From assembly GCA_964016885.1 (NCBI GenBank), contig OZ024742.1, positions 274,412,001 through 274,476,000 of the forward strand: a DNA stretch of 64,000 nucleotides. Reading direction: 5' to 3'. Shown in pieces: positions 15,018 through 55,227 of this stretch. This DNA comes from Eledone cirrhosa. Its lineage: Eukaryota. Positions within the stretch are counted from its first letter, which is position 1; each line of letters starts with the position of its first letter. The position numbers were made by a program, and so were the translations under genes. The notes under the pieces were generated by a model. The model was not told where the DNA came from and did no database searches. It saw nothing but the letters and a program-made list of their open reading frames with translations.

Positions 15018-15267
15018 ATACTGTATTGTTTATTATACATTAAATATTTTGCTCTGTAACTTACATAGGGCACTCTTTATTTTTCAATTTTCAACGGAAA
15101 CTTCAATATATATATATACATAATAGTCAATATAATGGAGAGAGGTAAACACAGATATATATACATATATGTGTTCAAATCATAAGGGACCAGATTCGTT
15201 AGGGTGAATAGGATACTAACTATGGACAATGTGGTGTGTGTATGTGTGTGTATGTATATATATATAT

Positions 15268-16725
15268 ATTGCTTTAGTTAGGTCTTTCCATGACGACATG
15301 AAGGCTTGGGTTAATGTCGGAGGTAACATGTCGGAGCCTATCTCAGTAAAAAATGGAGTGAAACAGGGGGATATTCCAGCACCGACCCTGTTTGCCATAT
15401 ACTTTGCAATGGTTTTCTGTATTGCATTCAGGAATTGCGAGCATGGTGTTTACATCCGATATCGAACCTCAGGCAGCATATTTAACATCAGGCGCTTTGC
15501 TGCGAAGACAAAAGTATTTACATCAGTCATAAGAGACCTCTTGTATGCAGATGATTGCGATCTTGTAGCACACACAGAGAGTGATATGCAGCACATTTTG
15601 AATGTATTTTCTGACGCTTGCACTGCCCTGGGTTTGACTGTCAGTCTCAAGAAAACCGTCGTCATGTACCAACCTGCACCTGGTAGGCAGTACACTGAAC
15701 CAAACATCTATGTGTATGGCAAACGACTTGGAGTGGTTGATCAGTTTGTCTACCTGGGAAGCACTGTCAATCGATACGGCAACCTTGACAGTGAAATCTC
15801 ACTTAGGATTAGGAAAGCAAGTGATGCTTTCGGAAAGCTAGAAAGGCGACTCTGGGGTCGGCGAGACATATGCAGGAGGACAAAGGTAAAGGTGTACAGG
15901 GCATGTGTACTCTCTTGTCTTCTTTATGCCTGCGAGACCTGGGTCACATATCGACGCCACCTTAAGCAATTGGAGCGTTTCCATCAGATGTGTCTCAGAC
16001 GGATACATGGCGTTCGCTGGAGGGACCACATCAGTGATGTCGAGATTTTGGAAAGCTCTATGTGTGACAGTATAGAAGCTCTTGTGCTTAAGCAGCGACT
16101 CCGTTGGAGTGGTCACCTTGCCAGGATGAAGGATTCTAGAATACCAAAACAACTCTTCTATGGAGAGTTGGTTAAAGGAAAACGACCGCCACATAAACCA
16201 AAAAAGAGGTATAAGGATTCCTTGAAGGCCTCTCTGAAAGACGCTAACATCTCTGCTGATACATGGGAAAATATTGCTGCTGATCGTAATAAATGGAGAA
16301 AGACTGTATATGAGGGAAAAGTTGCCTTTGAGGCATCTCGAATCGCACACGAGAAAGTAAAGCGGGACGTGAGGAAGGGTATTGCTGTTGCACTTCCAGA
16401 CGGCGAGGGTCCTCCTATGTTTCTGACATGCAGCGTCTGTGCGAGACTCTGCCTAAGCAAAGCTGGACTCGAAAGTCATCTTCGCAGTCATAAAGTAAGA
16501 CCAGTGGTTGACTACCAGGCTGCTGTTGGAGATGCTACTCATCATGCTTGCCAAACATGTGGTAGAGAATGTAAATCAGCAGGAGGACTCAAGCGACATG
16601 CAAAAGTACACGAACTCCAACCACAGCCGACTATTCCCAGTAAATGTTTTGGTTGCCGACTCTGTGCAAGACATTTTGGATCATTGGCTGGGCTAAAAAG
16701 CCACATTCGATCGCAGCACTGTTAG
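15268..16725 (+). CDS. RTE-clade LINE ORF, 5'-truncated: reverse transcriptase plus three C-terminal C2H2 zinc fingers
   Basis: Open frame with GVKQGDIPAPTLF, LLYADD, FVYLGS, LLYACETW, RLRWSGHLARM, PKQLFYGEL and three CxxC-x12-Hx3-4H fingers. 3' end tggc...gcca stem plus (CAT)n tail at ~16948-16983. Confidence 0.93.
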   Translation: MALVRSFHDDMKAWVNVGGNMSEPISVKNGVKQGDIPAPTLFAIYFAMVFCIAFRNCEHGVYIRYRTSGSIFNIRRFAAKTKVFTSVIRDLLYADDCDLVAHTESDMQHILNVFSDACTALGLTVSLKKTVVMYQPAPGRQYTEPNIYVYGKRLGVVDQFVYLGSTVNRYGNLDSEISLRIRKASDAFGKLERRLWGRRDICRRTKVKVYRACVLSCLLYACETWVTYRRHLKQLERFHQMCLRRIHGVRWRDHISDVEILESSMCDSIEALVLKQRLRWSGHLARMKDSRIPKQLFYGELVKGKRPPHKPKKRYKDSLKASLKDANISADTWENIAADRNKWRKTVYEGKVAFEASRIAHEKVKRDVRKGIAVALPDGEGPPMFLTCSVCARLCLSKAGLESHLRSHKVRPVVDYQAAVGDATHHACQTCGRECKSAGGLKRHAKVHELQPQPTIPSKCFGCRLCARHFGSLAGLKSHIRSQHC

Positions 16726-20858: not shown

Positions 20859-21202
20859 TATATATATATGCGTGCGTGTGTGTATATATATTTATATATA
20901 TATATATATAAAAACAAATAACGAAACGAAATTAAATTTCGTTTCGTTTGTAACTCACTTTTGTATGACTGACGCTTAAACAATTAAGTTAAAAATGTAC
21001 ATCCACATATGTATACTGAAATACTAGTATGCATATGAATACACACACGTATACATATGTAGATGTACCGAGTTTTTCACTGGTCACTTTACTGTGAATG
21101 TCCAGCTATTCTGTATGTAAACACACAGACAAACCGGTTTTTAGAGTCATACTGGTTTTTGAGGAAACACCTTTCCTCTATTCTGCAGAAAGCCAGACAA
21201 GG

Positions 21203-21247
21203 AATATTGAACTAGTTTCGATGTTGTTACATCTCATCAGCAATATT
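21203..21247 (-). ncRNA. Minimal type-I hammerhead ribozyme (466-bp family)
   Basis: AATATTG-CTGATGA-GATG taacaa CATC-GAAA-CTAG-TT-CAATATT; palindromic CTAG loop. Confidence 0.9.
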
Positions 21248-21668
21248 TACCTATCTTCCGGCCTTTCTAGAGAATCGTAAAAGCACATATCGTTATATGC
21301 TTTTTCTATGAAAATTAGTAGTGGGCAGACTAATTTGCATAGAGCGTGAGTACGTACCGGTTCAACGGAGACGATAAAAACAAATAACGAAACGAAATTA
21401 AATTTCGTTTCGTTTGTAACTCACTTTTGTATGACTGACGCTTAAACAATTAAGTTAAAAATGTACATCCACATATGTATACTGAAATACTAGTATGCAT
21501 ATGAATACACACACGTATACATATGTAGATGTACCGAGTTTTTCACTGGTCACTTTACTGTGAGTGTCCAGCTATTCTGTATGTAAACACACAGACAAAT
21601 CGGATTTTAGAGTCATACTGGTTTTTGAGGAAACATCTTTCCTCTATTCTCCAGAAAGCCAGACAAGG

Positions 21669-21713
21669 AATATTGAACTAGTTTCGATGTTGTTACATCT
21701 CATCAGCAATATT
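21669..21713 (-). ncRNA. Minimal type-I hammerhead ribozyme (466-bp family)
   Basis: Identical to 21203-21247, 466 bp away. Confidence 0.9.
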
Positions 21714-22152
21714 TACCTATCTTCCGGCCTTTCTAGAGAATCGTAAAAGCACATATCGTTATATGCTTTTTCTATGAAAATTAGTGACTCTAAAAACCGG
21801 TTTGTCTGTGTGTTTACATACAGAATAGCTGGACACTCACAGTAAAGTGACCAGTGAAAAACTCGGTACATCTACATATGTATACGTGTGTGTATTCATA
21901 TGCATACTAGTATTTCAGTATACATATGTGGATGTACATTTTTAACTTAATTGTTTAAGCGTCAGTCAAACAAAAGTGAGTTACAAACGAAACGAAATTT
22001 AATTTCGTTTCGTTATTTGTTTTTATCGTCTCCGTTGAACCGGTACGTACTCACGCTCTATGCAAATTAGTCTGCCCACTACTAATTTTCATAGAAAAAG
22101 CATATAACGATATGTGCTTTTACGATTCTCTAGAAAGGCCGGAAGATAGGTA

Positions 22153-22197
22153 AATATTGCTGATGAGATGTAACAACATCGAAACTAGTTCAATATT
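22153..22197 (+). ncRNA. Minimal type-I hammerhead ribozyme (466-bp family, inverted copy)
   Basis: aatattgctgatgagatgtaacaacatcgaaactagttcaatatt. Confidence 0.9.
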
Positions 22198-22684: not shown

Positions 22685-22942
22685 TACTCACTCTACTAGC
22701 CTAAGTATTGAGTACTCTGGTGTGTTATGGTCCATCTGGTTCCTTACCATATTTCCTTCGTTATATATATATATATATACATATGTGTGTGTATGTTTAT
22801 GTTCATATATATATATGAATGTATGCATATTATATTTGGCAAAATACCGTATGTTCAATTAAAAACATTTTGAAGACCTTACGCTATCATTTTAAAGTAG
22901 TGACTATGTCACTTACATCTTTTCGGCGAAAGAAAACAGAGA

Positions 22943-22984
22943 AGCTAACAGTCTGTTGCATGCTGTATAGCAATCATCAGAGCT
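22943..22984 (-). ncRNA. Degenerate hammerhead (314-bp family)
   Basis: AGCT-CTGATGA-tTGC tataca GCAt-GCAA(for GAAA)-CA gac TG-TT-AGCT. Confidence 0.6.
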
Positions 22985-23378
22985 ACGTACTGCGTTCTTC
23001 CGCCGAAAATGATAGATGCTGGATTCTTATAGAATTCCAGTAATAATCAGGAGCTGATTATACAGAGCGATTGACAGTACAGCAAAAATTAAGTATTAGG
23101 ATTGCTGCTCTGAAATAGTGATGTATACATGAATGTATGCATAGTATATTTTGAAGACATTACTCTATCATTTTAAAGTAGTGACTATGTAACTTACTTC
23201 TTTTCGGCGCCAAATATACTATGCATACATTCATGTATACATCGCTATTTCAGAGCAACAATCCTAATACTTAATTTTTGCTGGACCCCCAATCGCTCTG
23301 TATAATCAGCCCCTGATTTTTACTGGAATTATATAAGAATCCAGCTTCTATAATTTTCGGCGGTGAAGCGCAGTATGT

Positions 23379-23420
23379 TACACTGATGGTTGCCGAAAAG
23401 CATGAAACAGACTATTAGCA
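23379..23420 (+). ncRNA. Degenerate hammerhead (314-bp family)
   Basis: CTGATGG-tTGC cgaaaa GCAt-GAAA-CAGACTA-TT-AGCA. Confidence 0.5.
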
Positions 23421-23692
23421 TCTCTGCTGTCTTTCGCCGAAAAGATGTAAGTGACATAGTCACTACTTTAAAATGATAGCGTAAGGTCTTCAAAATGTTT
23501 TTAATTAAACATACGGTATATTGCCTAATATACTATGCATACATTCATGTATACAGCACTATTTCAGAGCAGCAATCCTAATACTTAATTTTTGCTGGAC
23601 TGGCAATCGCTCTGTTTAATCAGCTCCTGATTATTACTGGAATTCTATAAGAATCCAGCCTCTCTAATTTTCGGTGGAAGGGCGCAGTACGT

Positions 23693-23734
23693 AGCTCTGA
23701 TGATTGCCAAACAGCAAGCAACAGACTGTTAGCT
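23693..23734 (+). ncRNA. Hammerhead (314-bp family), A13C change
   Basis: AGCT-CTGATGA-TTGC caaaca GCAA-GCAA-CA gac TG-TT-AGCT. Confidence 0.65.
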
Positions 23735-24294
23735 TCTCTTCCTTCTTTCGCCGAAAAGAAGTAAGTGACATAGTTACTACCTTAAAATGATAGCGTAAGG
23801 TCTTCAAAATGTTTTTAATTAAACATACGCTATATTGCCAAATATACTATGCATACATTCATGTATACATCGCTATTTCAGAGCACCGATCCTAATATAT
23901 ATATATATATATATAAACATATGTGTGTGTGTGTGTGTGGTTTTCTGCTAGCATGTGTTGTCTGTATATTGATATTATACGCAAGCATATATGCATGTAG
24001 ATATGATACATCAAATAAAATCGTAATTGACAATATACACAGAAATTGAACGAAGACTGTGTTATGTAATCAGTAACGTAATCCATGATACATTTAAAAA
24101 ATACAATATTATATATAAACTGCATTAGGAGAAAATTAGTGACAGAAATATATGAATATTTATTTAAACGATCGCTAACCGGAAGTGTTGAAATTTGAAA
24201 ATTTTAAAGAAGTGAATCTTTAAATAAGAAATAAAATACATTTAATGAACAGCCACCAAATTTTGTAGATGAAATATGTAATATTCATTCATTC

Positions 24295-27620: not shown

Positions 27621-27693
27621 CTGAAGACTAAAATCCGAAGAGGGCTCGTTAAGCGTGAAAGCAACGATTCATTGCTTAAACTTTCATCTTTTA

Positions 27694-27732
<39 letters not shown>

Positions 27733-27842
27733 ATAATAATAAAATTGAAGACTAAAATCCAAAGAGGGTTCGATAAGGGTGAAAGCAGCGATTCTTTGCT
27801 TAAACTTTAATCTGTTATTTTAATAAATATATATATATATAT

Positions 27843-28465
27843 ATATGAGGGATGAACACCTATACAATTATACATGTGTTCGAATTGCAAATGACCAAGT
27901 TAGCTATGTTGAACGATACTAATCTAACATAATATGGTTTGCCTGTCTCGATTTAAAATAATAAATCAATAAAAATAACAAACCTATATTGGCAATGAAC
28001 ATGATACCCGGACAAATTCTAAATTTGTTTCGCAACAATTAAGTGAAAGTTACTATTCCTGTGCTCTTCTGCGGGTATCCAGGACAATTCGTATCTTTCA
28101 CTTCAAAATATTTAAGAAGACTGAGAAATACGTGTTGTTGAACGCACATGTGTCCCAGCACCTAACTCCTTTCATACTCATGCCGCTAAAAATAGCAGTC
28201 GGTTTTATGGGACTAAAATTAGCTCAACGTATGGAGCCGTGAATATCAAAAATTGAGTTATAAACTCAAAATAGTCTTTTGCAATTAAATAGCTCAAAGG
28301 AGGGAATATTTCCGAGCCGTGTAATACAAATGAATATATGAGGGATGAATACATATACGATTATATATGTGTATATAATCATTTGTATTACAGGGCTCGG
28401 AAATATTCCCTTCTTTGAGGTATTTAATTGTAAAAGACTATTTCGAGTTTATAACTCAATATTTG
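27843..28465. repeat. ~493-bp HHR unit with partial tandem restart and inverted tail
   Basis: atatgagggatgaa recurs at 27843 and 28336. ~28381-28460 is the reverse complement of ~28252-28331. (TA)n flanks. Confidence 0.8.
28003..28079 (-). ncRNA. Full three-stem hammerhead with U4A core change
   Basis: GATACCCG-CAGAAGA-GCA...TGC-GAAA-CAAATT tag AATTTG-TC-CGGGTATC. Confidence 0.8.
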
Positions 28466-45280: not shown

Positions 45281-45341
<61 letters not shown>

Positions 45342-45440
45342 AAATTAGAATTGGAGCTCTGTATAATCAGTTCCTGATTATTTACTAGAATTCTAAAAGA
45401 ATATAACATCTGTGATCTCAGCAGGCGGGAGGGAGTAGTT

Positions 45441-45486
45441 GGCCTTGATAAGCATCAACGAATGCAGAAACAAGGCCTTGTCGGCT
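45441..45486 (+). ncRNA. Hammerhead with U3:A8 covariant core, in a solo unit related to the 314-bp family (~45350-45606)
   Basis: GGCC-TTGATAA-GCAT caacga ATGC-a-GAAA-CAA ggcc TTG-TC-GGCT, enclosed by atctcagcaggcgggaggga / tctccccctgtttgctgagat. Confidence 0.72.
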
Positions 45487-46222
45487 TTATCTCCCCCTGT
45501 TTGCTGAGATTAAAGTAAGTGAGTCTCTAAAACAATAGCATACGGTCTTCAAAATGCTTTTAATAAGCATAAAGTGCATTGCAAAATACACTATATATAC
45601 ATTCATATATATATATATATATATATAAAACATGAAAAGAAAGAAGAATACTGCGTGGTTGCACATAGGTTACATATGATAAAATTAGTCCTTCGTCAGT
45701 GATTTGCCAACCATCATTGATATTTCATCGCATTAAAAATCATATACCTCAGGTTGGTGCGAGCAGTAACTAAACAAAGTTATTGGGACCAGTAAATCGC
45801 GTAAAGCGAGGGGGGCAAGTAAACAACATGGAAGGATAAAAGCAAACCAAAGATAGGAAAATAAACAAGCAACATGGTTGTCCGGTCAGCATAAACTGGG
45901 TGGATTTCATGAGCGATCAAGATACAGACCGTCCGACGTGAGTGAGATGTGAGCAAGAACCCACTACTAGCCAAACGGGAGGAAGTGAGAAGGGGAGAAA
46001 CAGAGAGTGAGTGAGTGGAAGTGCGAGGAAGTGGTCAGTCGAGAGAAAGTGGTCAGTTGAGAGAAAGTGGTCAGTCGAGAGAAAGTGTAACTGACAGAGG
46101 GGGCGAAAGAAGGTGAGAGCAACAGAGAGAACAGGGAAGCAGTAAGAGAGAAACAGACAAACGCATATATATATATGTGTGTGAGTGTGTGTGTATACAT
46201 ATGTATATAAATATCTGTACAC

Positions 46223-46879: not shown

Positions 46880-49772
46880 CACTCAAGCAGGACATTCTTT
46901 ACTCCTTAAGATACGTGCATATAACAATGTCCCTGCCTTAGCTTCAATTGGTTGCAAACTTATGAGTACCCCAGGATTTAGTCCCACATTTAAGATCCAA
47001 GATAAGACCAAGATTTACGCTACTCTACTTCTATGATCATGAGCTTCAGAATTGTTTGCATCATGTTAATTTAGATGTTGCCGTGCTGCAGGAGCTACAA
47101 GACGTCTTGCCCTACGGCAACACCTATATAAGAAACTTCAATGCAGACATTGAAATGCCAGTCTCTGAAAATGTGAATATTTTCCTTCATGCTGACAAAA
47201 TAAAACACACTGATTTTCATTGTCGCACTTATAATCTTCCTATGGTATCTGAGATTGCATTAAGTGCTTGGATGTCATCATTCATAAAAGATATGATGGT
47301 CTTCAGAGGATTCATCAGTTTCACCTTTATTATGATCCTCTGTATTATGTGTTCCTGTTTCCTTGGGGGAATGATGGGTTGTAGGTTGGTTTGAAAAGGA
47401 TTGACAAAAACCACGCACTCACACCCACTGATTTCTACTGTTAACGGTTTCAGGTTAGGCAATATGCTGTTGATGCAACAATATGGTGTAGATGTCCATG
47501 AAAAAATAGAACATTGTCGACTCAAATGGACCCACACAAATCAAACCATGATACGAGATCAAAATTATGAGTGTTTGTACAATGCTGTGGCTGAAGGAGA
47601 TTTAGTTATTGCAGGCTGGAGATTTGTTCTTCCTCCTTCAATCTATGGGTCCCATCGCTTCTACATTAATTGCTTCCAGAATTCAATAAATGCGGTTGGA
47701 CACATGGGAAAGCCATCCTTTTTCATCACAGTAACAGCTAACCCCAACTGGGATGAAATAAAAAATAATTTGCACCCTGGTGAAGAAACTAGGGACCGTT
47801 CCGATATTTGTGCAAGAGTCTTCAAGATTAAGTATGACAGCCTCATGGATGACATAATGAAAATACATGTCCTAGTAAAGGTTGTGGCTTATTCTGCTAC
47901 AAAAGAGTGGCAAAAATGAGGCTTCACTCATATTAGTATTCTAGTGATAATGGCTGAAAATAGCAAGCCAAGAACTGTAGATGCCATTGATCAGGTAGTG
48001 TACTGTGAGATTCCTGAAAAAGGGACTAATCCAATTCTGCATAAAAGCATCACTTCCTGCAACATTCATGGCCCTGGTGGACAAGCTAATATGATGTGTT
48101 CATATATCGAACGGCTAGGACTACAACGCCATTGATCAGAATGTTTTCCTAAGGCATTCAGACAAACTAAATTGTTGGCCGAAAATTCCTTTCCGGAGTA
48201 TAGAAGAAGGGATAGACAGCATGGTGGTCACACCCATACAATCCAACTTAAAGGTCAAGAATTAACCGTTGGATTGTTCCATACCAACCTTTCCTCTCAT
48301 TGCGATATCAGTGCCACTTCAATTGTGAGGTTGTCCTCTGTGCCAAGAATGTTAAATACGTATATAATTACATCACAAAAGTATCATACACGATCACTTT
48401 CATCATTAAGCATGGTCAAGGAATTAGTGAACATGTACAAAATGAGATTGAGACCTATATCAATGCACGGTACATCAGAGCCAAGTGAATCATTCTGGAG
48501 AATCTATAAATTTCCGTTAAATCAAAGGAAACCGCAGGTTGAAACGATGGCTTGCCATTTACCTGCGGAACAAATGGTCGTGTATGAGCTAGGGTAGGAA
48601 GAAAGTGTGGTTTCTAGGAGACAGCCAATGACTATATGTTGACGGAATATTTCCACCTGAATATTATAGACCTACAGGCACAAAATATATTGTATATTGA
48701 TATTCCTAAATATTTCACTTGGACAAACAAAATGTAGCAAAGAAGTAAAAAGGAACATCTGGATCGTGATCAACAATTTATGAGTGAATCTCTTGGAAGG
48801 ATTCCAACAATATCTTTCAGTAGACATCAATCGGAATTATATTACAGGATGTAGGATGATCCTACATCACAAGGTTGGGTCAACTTGAAACAAAGATTTG
48901 AAGACAATTGAAGGAGTTGAATTTCCCACATTCCAAGAAGCATCAAGTAAACTTATTCTGTTGAATGAAGATGGAGAAAAAGACAAATGTATGGAAGACG
49001 CCTCATACATTACGCGTCGTCCTCAACTGCAAGAGATCTTCTGCAACATTTTATTCTACTGCATACTAAATGACCCTCTGCAGTGCTTGAAGAAATGAAA
49101 GAATTGTCTTGCACATGCATGAACGTCCTGAGCAAGTCATGTCCATGCAAACCATGCAGATCGTTCTACAGAAGATCCAACGAAAACTTCAGCATGATGG
49201 CTTAGACATTCATGTCAACTAAGAGCTTCCTCGGCCAGACACTACTAGTATTGCCATACCAGAAATCAACAGGGTTCTTATGGCAGGAACTGATTTCAAT
49301 ACACAACGACTGAAAGCAAACATAAATGAATTTCTACCAACATTAAATCCTGAGTAACTGATTATATTTCACAAAGTAATCACCTCTGTATATGAAAATG
49401 AAGGTAGAATCTTCTACTTGAATGCAAGTATAGTCACAGGAAAGACCTGTCATCAACATCATATTGGATTAACTCCGATCTCTAAAACAGATTGCACTTG
49501 CCTCTGTCATATCTGGAAGAGCAGCCACTTTGCTTCACAAAGGTCAAATTCTTCATTCCGAGTGCAAGATTCCTCTCATTGTGACTGCTGAATCAACTTG
49601 CTTCTTCACAAAGCGGGTTGCCATAGGAAAACTTATCCAGCAGGCTGACCCGCTGATTATTGATAGATAAGTATGGGACATAAGAATATCCTCGAATGCC
49701 TTGATAGGAGCTTCAAAGATATTCGAGATTGCAAGAAGACATTTGGTGGTCTAACAGTATTACTATATGGGA
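46880..49772 (+). pseudogene. Degenerate Helitron RepHel (HUH Rep plus Pif1-like helicase N-terminal part)
   Basis: RAYNN..LASIG, YDPLYYVFLFPWGNDG, VLPPSIYGS, GKPSFFITVTANPNWDEI, EWQK*GFTH (HUH), NIHGP, PEYRRR, HFNCE..VKYVYNYITK, Walker A-like ..TGKT, SGRAATLL, LDRSFKDIR...FGGLTVLL. Many stops. Confidence 0.93.
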
Positions 49773-52824: not shown

Positions 52825-54190
52825 TGTTTCTTTTATTTGCCACAAGGGCATCAAAAGTGGGACAAGTACAATGGGGGGAGTTTACAAAACAAGGCGTCCT
52901 CAATAGGGAGGAGGCAATAACAATATATAAAAATAAAATAAAATATAACAAAAAATAGAATTATAACAAAATCCTCAATAGAGGATTTTGTTATAAAATA
53001 TAACAAAAAATAAAATTTATAACAAAATCCTCAATAGAGAGGAGGCGCCTTGGGGGGTCGCACACACCCCCGAAAAAAGTGTGCAACCCTTTTCCTCAGG
53101 AGCACAGAGAGGGGGGGCTCCCTCGTTCCTTCCTCTTTTCCCCCTACAGGCTCATGTAAAGAGAAGGCCCATTCACACGGGCCATTCTCGCCACTTTCAC
53201 CCACCTTTCATAAAAACGACTGGGGTGCAGCACCTCTCTCTCCATCCTGATCCTTCTTCCGAAATGATATCGGAAGAAACGGACCAGTTGTTGGCCAGAG
53301 AGAAAGGTGCCTGACCTCAGTCCTTTCAGACGCGTCCACCATACAACCTCTTTCGCCATGGCTATTACGCACAGAAACACCGCCTCTGCTTCATCTTTGA
53401 AGGGGGGAGGCGGCTTGATCATTACAATAGACTCGGTGGTCAACCGGATCGGTCCCACTCTTGACAGCAGTTGTTCGACATAGCCCCACAGATCGGCTAC
53501 GCCCGAGCAGTGTACCAATGCGTGTGCAACGGTTTCCTCGTCGCACACGCATCTGGGACAGATCTTTTTGGCGGGGTCCCTACCCGGGCGCCCGTGTCTG
53601 TAGAGCCTTTCTCGAACGGGTAAAGCTCCTCGGTAGCACTGCCAGGCCAGGGACTTCTGGAAGTTGTCCATAGGTCCCGGGCTGAATGTCCTACCGAACA
53701 GGCCGGCCAGTTCGTCCTCCTCCATGTCTAGGGCTTCTCCGAGGGCGTCGTCGCACCTGCTGCGTACCAGCCCTCTATAGAATGTTGCGGTGGAGTCTCC
53801 ACTGATAACCGGATCCGCCTGCCAGAGGGCGGCGGGCGCCTGGGCACACTCAGTGTGCCAGGCGCCCAGATTTCTCGGTCTTTGCTTGACCCAGGATTGC
53901 AGCTCGATGAGTGAGACGAGTCTGGGAAAGGTTCGTCTCACAAACGAGGCCCACACCGGTTGTCCGGTGAGGAATACGTAGAGGTGCCGTAGCCTTAATG
54001 CGTGTTTACGCATCATTAGCCACGGCATCCCCAGCCCTCCTTTCGAAGGGTGTTGACAGCAGATGGATTTCCTCACCATAGGAGCCCGCCTCTTCCAAAG
54101 GAATTGGAAGAGCGCGCGCTCCATCTTGGTGAGGATTTCCCTTGGGCAGGGCACTACGGTCAGGCGGTAGTAGATGACGGACGCTATATA
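52825..54190 (-). mobile_element. Tx1/L1-clade LINE 3' fragment with intact ORF2 C-terminus (53144-~54190)
   Basis: Open frame with FQFLWK...KGGLGMP, CPRC..DEETVAHALVHC (zf-RVT); 3'UTR ends with AATAAAAGAAAC. Confidence 0.92.
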
Positions 54191-55227
54191 TAGATAGATC
54201 ATTGATTTAATACCAGCTATCTACGTTAATTTCATAGTGTATTATACTCCTAACTGCGCTGATCGGAATCTCCTGTACACGGTTAGACTTTTCAATATTT
54301 CTTGTTTATATTTCCTAAAGTAACATTTTGACTATTGAATGTTCGATTTTGTATCACGAATGAGCTATTATTTGCTGAAAACCTCGTTATGTTTATATGT
54401 GTATATGCAGCTAGCTTGTCGAGTGCTTTGTTTGGCGCGAATTCCTTTGTTTGAATTCAACCGCCAAAACACATATTTTAGTCTAGACTAGATTCCTTCC
54501 TATTTCCCATTAGAGGCTGTGTGTCAGAATGGCTAGAACTACTTGTTTCCCTGTCCAGTGGTAACGGATACCCAACAATGTATAGACCTATCTTATGACT
54601 TGGGCAACCTGCTGATAAGTGTAACAGCCTGTTTACGTAAATATCGGCTGATATGTAATTTTCCGAAAATTGATGATCTTATATCTGCATTTGTGAAGAT
54701 ATTGCACAAAAACGATATCGTCCAGTAGTTCAGAATTTTACCTTTCTCTCTATCAAAACACAGCCACTGTATCTGATATTCACTAAATGTGTGCACTATG
54801 AACAGCTGATTGCAACTGCATTACTGAAATTCGGCAGATTCATTGAGCGACCTAGACATTGGCCGGAGATCGTTGATATAACACCAGTGATCTTCGTTAA
54901 TTTTATTATATATATATATATATGTATATTTTTTTCTTTAAAAAAATCTCATATTGAAAAAGAGAAATAGTTGACGACACCCGTACTTTCAAACATTCGA
55001 TCACTGAAGAGAAGAAAAACCCTCAGAGGTACACTAACATTTCATTAATTTTCCCCTTCTCCACTCCAATGTATATGTGAACTTAAACACTTGAGTAGAT
55101 ATGTGTAGATATATGTGTGTACAAGTGTATATGTATGAGTGCATATGTCTGTGTGTGTGTATATATGTGTATGTAAGCACGTGCGTGTATGATATATATA
55201 TATATATATGTATGTGTTTATATGTAT

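What the first reader, a model, noticed from the sequence alone, without database searches (positions are those of the whole stretch)
45350..45606. Hammerhead with U3:A8 core and covarying enclosing helix in a relative of the 314-bp family
Seen: the flanks align to the 314-bp unit (gctctgtataatcag.tcctgatt..tact.gaattcta.aagaat; aagtaagtga; ggtcttcaaaatg.ttttaat). The core reads UUGAUAA rather than CUGAUGA, stem III is CAA-ggcc-UUG, and the enclosing helix changes from ttttcggcggaaga.../...tctttcgccgaaaa to tctcagcaggcggg.../...cctgtttgctgaga. Established: positions 3 and 8 form a tertiary Watson-Crick pair in the active HHR, and compensatory swaps can preserve activity. Inference: a natural functional core variant that strict CUGANGA searches would miss. 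One extra A precedes GAAA.
Basis: partly seen in the sequence, partly recalled or inferred. Interest (0 to 1): 0.78.

Follow-up and report, generated by a model that had tools for sequence, protein, structure and literature searches.

The report
U3:A8 hammerhead in Penelope-mobilised repeats
This is one of thousands of copies of a short genomic repeat carrying a hammerhead-ribozyme motif in which the usual C-G core pair is replaced by U-A, a swap already reported in other organisms; the repeat likely spreads as a self-cutting RNA copied by Penelope-type retrotransposons, and this copy's extra base may weaken its cutting.

Summary
45445-45482 is a type I hammerhead with U3:A8, an extra A before G12 and a palindromic stem III. 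U3:A8 is not private decay: 4,968 of 6,554 genome-wide cores of this repeat superfamily are U3:A8, 1,457 are C3:G8 and 129 are mismatched. The pair switched at least twice (p-AU 9e-5). U3:A8 is, however, already published as a natural variant (PMC3088659, PMC4209133). The unit is a ~320-bp non-LTR retrozyme. Insertions show Penelope hallmarks: head-to-head arms, (TA)n flanks and two 3' ends ~25 nt apart, one per arm in 73 of 97 junctions. Three arms join directly to 3' ends of autonomous Penelope-like elements. The window copy is a single sub-unit insertion, likely a dead end. Its extra A marks a sublineage with fewer multi-core arms (4 of 39 vs 14 of 37 loci), a hint of weaker cleavage. A predicted 7-bp self-lock blocks the monomer, while natural tandems often fold as double hammerheads. 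Cleavage and expression are untested. Verdict: new variant of a known kind, moderate interest.

The parts
45356..45614 (+). Main arm of the insertion: positions 1-268 of the ~320-bp retrozyme unit, with a private ~9-nt deletion, ending at the short 3' end (S1)
   Evidence: 91.8% to a natural unit from L028
45344..45361 (-). Short inverted arm ending at the long 3' end (S2, 'tail'); overlaps the main arm by 6 nt (45356-45361)
45284..45342 (.). (TA)n microsatellite, left flank
45592..45627 (.). AT-rich unit end running into (TA)n, right flank
45416..45429 (+). Enclosing helix, 5' strand
   Evidence: 9 of 14 pairs change on both sides across 30 representatives
45439..45444 (+). Stem I, 5' strand
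45445..45451 (+). Core strand U3-U4-G5-A6-U7-A8-A9 (U3 45445, A8 45450)
45452..45465 (+). Stem II (4 bp, G10.1-C11.1) with hexaloop
   Evidence: 4 of 4 pairs change on both sides
45466..45466 (+). Extra A between C11.1 and G12, a sublineage trait
   Evidence: (48 of the first 100 of 612 matches)
45467..45482 (+). G12-A13-A14-A15.1, palindromic stem III (45470-45481), C17; predicted cleavage after 45482
45441..45477 (+). Predicted alternative 'lock' helix, 45441-45447 paired with 45471-45477 (7 bp), exclusive with the monomeric hammerhead
45483..45490 (+). Stem I, 3' strand, with one extra U relative to the youngest sisters
45496..45509 (+). Enclosing helix, 3' strand
22807..23153 (-). Related 314-bp family (C3:G8), inverted arm ending at S1
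23209..23896 (+). Related 314-bp family (C3:G8), 2.2 tandem units ending at S2

Best explanation
This is a single, sub-unit-length copy of a ~320-bp repeat whose type I hammerhead motif has U3:A8 in place of C3:G8 throughout its lineage, and the repeat is likely a non-LTR retrozyme that would self-cleave as RNA and is likely pasted into (TA)n by Penelope-like elements. Shown: motif, copy numbers, covariation, two switches of the 3:8 pair, insertion anatomy. Inferred cycle: (1) tandem source arrays are transcribed; (2) neighbouring ribozymes pair through the palindromic stem III and cleave as a double hammerhead; (3) the monomer is ligated to a circle, in which a 6-8 bp helix between stem I/N3-U4-G5 and the 5' half of stem III would block re-cleavage; (4) an RT-GIY-YIG protein nicks both strands of (TA)n and starts reverse transcription at two internal sites, about 145 and 170 nt downstream of the cleavage site, giving head-to-head arms, one with the ~25-nt tail and one without. 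The window copy has one ribozyme and less than one unit, so it is likely a dead-end product. Its extra A is likely tolerated but sub-optimal.
For: Genome-wide: 4,968 U3:A8, 1,457 C3:G8 and 129 mismatched of 6,554 cores; about 2,340 mismatched would be expected if the positions were independent; reversed-pattern control 1. One U3:A8 clade is rejected with the trait columns removed (p-AU 8.7e-5, 70 rows). The nine invariant core columns show 0 changes inherited by 3 or more loci against 18 private ones; 220 outside columns show 161 inherited (199 of 203 copies; Poisson p 0.0014). 20 of 33 pairs change on both sides in 30 representatives, above 499 of 500 shuffles and above all slid controls. Of 97 head-to-head junctions, 73 have one S1 and one S2 end, 8 have the same end twice and 16 have an end elsewhere. 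Published PLE features match: two internal start sites that define the tail (PMC11167929); inverted 5'-truncated copies, a tail at one end and (TA)n bias (PMC8557442). Autonomous RT+GIY-YIG elements with the same two-ended, head-to-head, (TA)n anatomy are in this genome. Three of 60 unpaired 5' ends join directly to such elements' 3' ends (L046, L008, L161). Folding: stem III forms in 0 of 34 natural monomer circles, the lock in 29 of 34, and the double-hammerhead helix in 19 of 34 natural tandems.
Against: No cleavage or expression data. In one type III hammerhead only the G:C swap rescued activity; other double mutants in that region were low (PMC9901934). Only 1 of 9 predicted Xenopus retrozyme dimers cleaved in vitro (10.64898/2026.07.22.740005). 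Ribozyme mutants did not reduce PLE insertion in vitro (PMC11167929), so amplification alone does not prove cleavage. Copy counts are inflated by shared ancestry; only two independent switches are shown. The core-conservation test is weaker against private changes (Fisher p 0.09), 135 of 220 outside columns also had no inherited change, and part of the sample was found with core patterns. The 30 representatives were hand-picked and none had a mismatched 3:8 pair. The unit has no BLAST or local-alignment similarity to the PLE repeats tested beyond AT repeats. No further PLE chimera was found among 17 unpaired ends in 40 more loci. 15 of 34 tandems did not fold as double hammerheads.
Confidence: 0.72

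Rival explanations
1. U3:A8 ribozymes are active in the family, but the extra-A sublineage, including this copy, has lost or nearly lost cleavage and spread from uncleaved read-through transcripts.
For: The insertion sits next to G12. Loci behind the first 100 matches: arms with two or more cores in 4 of 39 extra-A loci vs 14 of 37 without it (Fisher p 0.007); arms of 500 nt or more in 4 of 39 vs 12 of 37 (p 0.024); nearest-neighbour identity 0.973 in both. The extra A was apparently lost again in the youngest amplifying lineages (one clade rejected, p-AU 0.006). Cleavage is not needed for PLE insertion in vitro. Rfam HH9 matches the sister but not this copy.
Against: The extra-A lineage branched repeatedly and kept the core. 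It makes up 48 of the first 100 of 612 exact matches and has arms up to 646 nt. An insertion in the GAAA strand (U13a) is described as likely accommodated (PMC3088659). The core count per arm was a loose motif count, and the arm-length comparison was one of several made.
Confidence: 0.35
2. The motif is conserved as a structural or protein-binding signal of a PLE-derived repeat and no longer cleaves in any U3:A8 lineage.
For: U:A gave low activity in one mutational scan. The monomer is predicted to misfold. Minimal PLE hammerheads cleave poorly in vitro. 8 of 9 Xenopus dimers were inactive.
Against: The 3:8 Watson-Crick pair forms in the active fold and was kept through two independent double switches. 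N17 is C or U in all 199 copies. U3:A8 was shown active in vitro according to PMC3088659. An unrelated autonomous PLE here also uses U3:A8 (37 of 38 copies).
Confidence: 0.13
3. The repeat is a minisatellite spread at DNA level (unequal exchange, fold-back rearrangements in (TA)n), with the ribozyme a passenger.
For: Tandem arrays of up to six cores exist. S1 lies in an AT run that could recombine with (TA)n. A satellite route is discussed in the 2026 preprint.
Against: Random 5' truncation with two fixed 3' ends, one per arm (73 vs 8), head-to-head 50 vs tail-to-tail 2 in 83 loci, and dispersal over many contigs fit target-primed reverse transcription.
Confidence: 0.05

Closest known systems
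Metazoan non-LTR retrozymes (Cervera and de la Pena 2020, PMC7229834; Li et al. 2026 preprint)
   Same: Type I hammerhead in a 170-400 bp low-GC tandem repeat with no ORF, thousands of copies, a palindromic stem III suited to dimer cleavage, and co-occurrence with PLEs.
   Different: The core is mostly U3:A8. The monomer circle is predicted to be self-blocked, whereas most metazoan retrozyme circles were predicted to leave the ribozyme free. Copies are mostly short head-to-head inverted insertions, not long arrays. Expression as circles was not shown here.
U3-A8 minimal hammerheads of Schistosoma mansoni Cercyon PLEs (PMC4209133)
   Same: Same core covariation, over a thousand genomic copies, link to PLEs.
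   Different: Those are minimal motifs with a long helix II and little helix III in pLTRs. This one has a 4-bp stem II with hexaloop, a bulged extended stem I and a 12-nt palindromic stem III, in a non-coding tandem unit.
Natural hammerhead core variants (Perreault et al. 2011, PMC3088659)
   Same: U3/A8 covariation, U10.1-U11.1 mismatch (common in the C3:G8 branch here), insertions in the core.
   Different: The passages read name insertions A6a, U13a and 2a/2b, none at the C11.1/G12 junction; the figures could not be seen.
Penelope-like elements with C-terminal GIY-YIG and a CX2-5CXXC linker (Neptune/Nematis type; PMC8557442, PMC11167929)
   Same: Inverted 5'-truncated arm, tail at one end, two internal 3' ends, (TA)n targets, hammerhead upstream of the 3' end.
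   Different: The repeat encodes no protein and has no detected homology to the pLTRs tested beyond a shared 7-nt terminus with one family.

Membership tests
Type I hammerhead ribozyme | Core N3-U-G-A-N-N8-A ... G-A-A-A ... U-H with a Watson-Crick 3:8 pair | tested here: met
   U3:A8 and GUC site; 98% of 6,554 cores are matched pairs
Type I hammerhead ribozyme | Three helices round the core, stems II and III closed, stem I open, supported by covariation | tested here: met
   stem III largely invariant (3 of 4 pairs never vary)
Type I hammerhead ribozyme | C11.1 directly followed by G12 | tested here: not met
   Extra A at 45466 in this copy and its sublineage; met in 51 of the first 100 sister matches
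Type I hammerhead ribozyme | Rfam hammerhead model at gathering score | tested here: not met
   No hit for this copy; sisters 18.6-19.5 bits against 52 for HH9, so the models also miss C3:G8 relatives
Type I hammerhead ribozyme | Self-cleavage after H17 | not testable with these tools
   No assay and no RNA reads
Non-LTR retrozyme | 150-450 bp tandem unit with one type I hammerhead per unit, GC below 50%, no ORF, no LTR | tested here: met
   Units of 314-325 bp in 34 natural tandems; no ORF of 120 aa or more over the copy; the window copy itself is less than one unit
Non-LTR retrozyme | Expressed as unit-length linear and circular RNA | not testable with these tools
   No RNA holder listed
Non-LTR retrozyme | Target-site duplication | not tested
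   Ends lie in (TA)n, where a duplication cannot be read without empty sites
Non-autonomous Penelope-mobilised element | Inverted 5'-truncated arm and a tail at one end | tested here: met
   73 of 97 junctions with one S1 and one S2 end; the window copy fits
Non-autonomous Penelope-mobilised element | Sequence homology to the pLTR of an autonomous partner | tested here: inconclusive
   None found in 45 GIY-YIG loci out of 10,598 candidates; only a 7-nt shared end and three chimeric junctions
Autonomous Penelope-like element | ORF with RT and GIY-YIG | tested here: not met
   No ORF in the unit

The most novel reading that the evidence does not exclude
This retrozyme family solves the problem of keeping its RNA circles intact with a built-in switch: the palindromic stem III pairs back on stem I and N3-U4-G5 in the monomer (off) and with the next unit in the multimer (on). 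Stem I, position 3 and stem III co-evolved under three constraints through four different palindromes, with U3:A8 one step on that path. An active hammerhead also tolerates an extra base before G12. Chimeric insertions would be direct genomic footprints of Neptune-type Penelope proteins copying a retrozyme RNA and their own RNA in one event.
Probability: 0.3. Interest if true: 0.66.

Novelty: new variant of a known kind. Interest (0 to 1): 0.42.

Why it matters
First, censuses that require CUGANGA would miss three quarters of this superfamily's cores. Second, the family is a natural experiment on the 3:8 pair, with two independent switches and closely related C3:G8 and U3:A8 forms that can be assayed side by side. 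Third, PMC7229834 left open how metazoan retrozyme circles avoid re-cleavage; the predicted lock is a concrete, cheap-to-test answer for this family. Fourth, the link between retrozymes and Penelope elements has rested on co-occurrence and pLTR similarity in the papers read; the two-end insertion signature and the chimeras are a different kind of evidence and name candidate partners. The U3:A8 variant by itself is known, which caps the interest.

Tried and rejected
Private decay of C3 and G8: rejected. Extra A compensated by the extra U in stem I: rejected. In the first 100 of 612 matches, 47 have both, 1 has the A alone, 31 have the U alone, 20 have neither and 1 has an extra T (counted by hand). 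Re-registering the core so that the extra A forms an A.A pair at 10.1/11.1: rejected by inspection, because it displaces G5 and A6. Rfam over 14 loci with the E-value threshold was swamped by microsatellite miRNA hits; no hammerhead among the 150 of 228 rows shown. Search for a homologous autonomous pLTR in 45 GIY-YIG loci: nothing beyond AT repeats. Expression: no RNA holder listed. Contigs of runs X1, X4, X5 and X6 were laid; X1 and X6 cover the unit in pieces, but contigs show neither strand nor ends, so nothing is concluded. Arm lengths in BLAST-chosen sets showed no clear difference between sublineages. A first comparison on 40 loci was biased by which loci had been fetched earlier and was redone on all 78 loci (one apparent segmental duplicate and one extra-T locus left out). 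Adjacent PLE pieces in L133, L170/L171 and L121 were not counted as chimeras: they are tail-to-tail or separated by (TA)n. Earlier findings of the scan: none. Lunse et al. 2017, Przybilski and Hammann 2007, and Nelson and Uhlenbeck 2008 are not held, so their rates and variant lists are unseen.

Full report
1. Observation. The sequence at 45416-45509 is as described. In hammerhead numbering: stem I 45439-45444 with 45483-45489, U3 45445, A8 45450, A9 45451, a 4-bp stem II closed by G10.1-C11.1 with a 6-nt loop, an extra A at 45466, G12-A15.1 at 45467-45470, a 12-nt palindromic stem III and C17 at 45482. The region folds far better than shuffles (z -6.5). It is 72-74% identical to the 314-bp family at 22807-23896, whose three cores in the window are C3:G8. 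Rfam has no hit at gathering score anywhere in the window and no hammerhead for this copy. HH9 weakly matches a sister without the extra A and a C3:G8 relative.

2. U3:A8 is a lineage trait. The window lies in a 3.0-Gb genome. Of the 45 distinct closest copies, 42 are U3:A8 and none is C3:G8. A superfamily pattern matches 6,554 places (reversed control 1): 4,968 U3:A8, 1,457 C3:G8 and, by subtraction, 129 mismatched. These are exact-match lower bounds and are inflated by shared descent. On a tree of 70 of 203 copies (thinned at 95.5% identity), built without the trait columns, U3:A8 needs two changes forced by strong branches, and a single clade is rejected (p-AU 8.7e-5). One switch leads to the large clade that holds this copy; the other (L180, L191) sits inside the C3:G8 family. 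The root is a midpoint, so direction is not shown. An unrelated autonomous element also carries U3:A8 in 37 of 38 copies.

3. Selection on the motif. In 199 of 203 copies the nine invariant core columns have no change inherited by three or more loci but 18 private changes. The 220 columns outside have 161 inherited changes (Poisson p 0.0014; Fisher against private changes p 0.09; 135 outside columns also have none). In 30 hand-picked representatives, 91% of cells pair and 20 of 33 pairs change on both sides, including 9 of 14 in the enclosing helix and 4 of 4 in stem II. This fits selection on source RNAs with neutral decay after insertion. Part of the sample was found with core patterns, which favours this result.

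4. The element. The unit is 314-325 bp, without an ORF. Copies are 5'-truncated arms, mostly joined head to head (50 head-to-head vs 2 tail-to-tail in 83 loci). Their 3' ends fall at two sites about 25 nt apart, S1 and S2, and about half run straight into (TA)n (66 of 139 arms by a strict test). Of 97 junctions, 73 pair S1 with S2, 8 repeat one site and 16 have another end. The window copy fits: an 18-nt inverted arm ending at S2, a 6-nt overlap, then unit positions 1-268 ending at S1. It holds one ribozyme and cannot release a unit on its own. These are Penelope hallmarks: an inverted truncated arm, a tail at one end and (TA)n bias (PMC8557442, passages), and two internal start sites that define the tail (PMC11167929, parts 1-2 of 4). 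The genome has 10,598 GIY-YIG candidates. Two families with RT, a C-terminal GIY-YIG and a CX4-5CXXC linker show the same two-ended anatomy. One shares the last 7 nt with S2. Three of 60 unpaired 5' ends join directly to the 3' ends of these families (L046, L008, L161), against roughly 0.07-0.15 expected from my rough density estimate. None was found among 17 further ends, and later deletion or misassembly could also make such joints. No pLTR homology was found.

5. Monomer off, dimer on (predicted). The best fold of this copy is not the hammerhead: 45441-45447 pairs with the 5' half of stem III (P 0.99; the hammerhead fold is 5.3 kcal/mol higher). N3 pairs with position 15.4 in 29 of 30 representatives (12 C-G, 11 U-G, 6 U-A). 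In 7 representatives with four different palindromes, only 2-5 of the 64 possible palindromes give such a lock, and the natural one does each time. Among 34 natural monomer circles the lock forms in 29 and stem III in none. Among 34 natural tandems the inter-unit helix III forms in 19. Against: one young lineage (L163) lacks this lock, though it is also not predicted to form the hammerhead; the representatives are related; and the near-repeat could come from template slippage rather than selection. PMC7229834 (passages) reported that most metazoan retrozyme circles are predicted to leave the ribozyme free and inferred an unknown block.

6. The extra A. It is in 48 of the first 100 of 612 matches and is not tied to the extra U in stem I. 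Extra-A copies are not one clade (p-AU 0.006); the youngest no-A lineages nest inside them, although one abundant no-A class was thinly sampled. Loci with the extra A have fewer multi-core arms (4 of 39 vs 14 of 37, p 0.007) at similar apparent age. This suggests reduced cleavage or circle output but does not show it. One search with five terms found no paper on such an insertion; the two most relevant papers could not be read.

7. What is known. Natural U3-A8 covariation was reported in PMC3088659 (passages and section 8; supplement search empty; figures unseen), which cites earlier in vitro activity. About 1,300 such motifs were found in Schistosoma PLEs (PMC4209133, parts 1-2 of 4). Searches for U3-A8 spellings returned only these two papers. 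Non-LTR retrozymes and their likely PLE origin are described in PMC7229834 and in preprint 10.64898/2026.07.22.740005 (parts 1 and 3 of 5 and passages), where 1 of 9 dimers cleaved. In a type III hammerhead only the G:C swap rescued (PMC9901934, passages). PMC7151607, PMC6765202 and PMC6155905 were seen as passages only and add nothing decisive. Hammerhead numbering and the roles of G12 and the 3:8 pair are recalled or taken from those passages.

8. Verdict. It works like, and by anatomy is, a type I hammerhead in a non-LTR retrozyme moved by Penelope-like elements (0.72). Membership as an active ribozyme is untested, and this copy fails the C11.1-G12 adjacency. The headline variant is known. 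What is new here is its dominance and repeated origin in one family, the extra-A sublineage, the predicted lock and the insertion footprints. Novelty: new variant of a known kind. Interest 0.42.

Noticed in passing
window 7907(-), 9070(+), 10234(-), 13857(+), 17104(-), 18432(-), 19679(+), 21240(-), 21706(-), 22160(+), 34879(-), 44556(+), 56299(-): Thirteen further hammerhead-like motifs, all C3:G8, in several recurring families; resampled windows give 0 or 1. The genome is very rich in hammerheads that Rfam misses.
   Followed up: partly
window 20908-22160: A 466-bp tandem repeat with a hammerhead per unit, arranged head to head: likely another retrozyme family.
   Followed up: no
L077:6309-9122(-), L078:2988-5519(+), L087, L090, L206-L232: Autonomous Penelope-like family (ORFs of 844-938 aa, RT, GIY-YIG, cysteine linker) whose terminal repeat has its own minimal U3:A8 hammerhead and two 3' ends 63 nt apart.
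   Followed up: partly
L080, L081, L084, L088, L092: Second Penelope-like family with a C3:G8 minimal hammerhead, a U.U pair at the base of stem II and two 3' ends; partner in the L008 and L161 chimeras.
   Followed up: partly
L012, L124, L141; L045, L109, L157: Retrozyme arms joined at their 5' ends to two other short repeat families, one being the 124-bp repeat at window 27622-27846, the other present at least six times in the window. Possibly more passengers of the same machinery.
   Followed up: no
L075:2205(+), L061:25(+), L180: Several families have A.A or U.U mismatches at 10.1/11.1; L075 and L180 combine this with U3:A8.
   Followed up: no
L200 and L271: Tandem pairs in which both cores are U3.G8, so a wobble form was copied at least once in each.
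   Followed up: no
window 15220-16725(+), 47395-47919(+), 53144-54220(-): An RT plus C2H2 zinc-finger frame, a Helitron helicase-like fragment and a zf-RVT fragment.
   Followed up: no
L253 and L254: Two loci about 1.2 Mb apart with the same arm junctions: likely a segmental duplication.
   Followed up: no
runs X4, X5, X6: Contigs labelled as three other organisms hold parts of the unit; X6 covers all 30 bins in pieces. Relatives or contamination; not resolved.
   Followed up: partly
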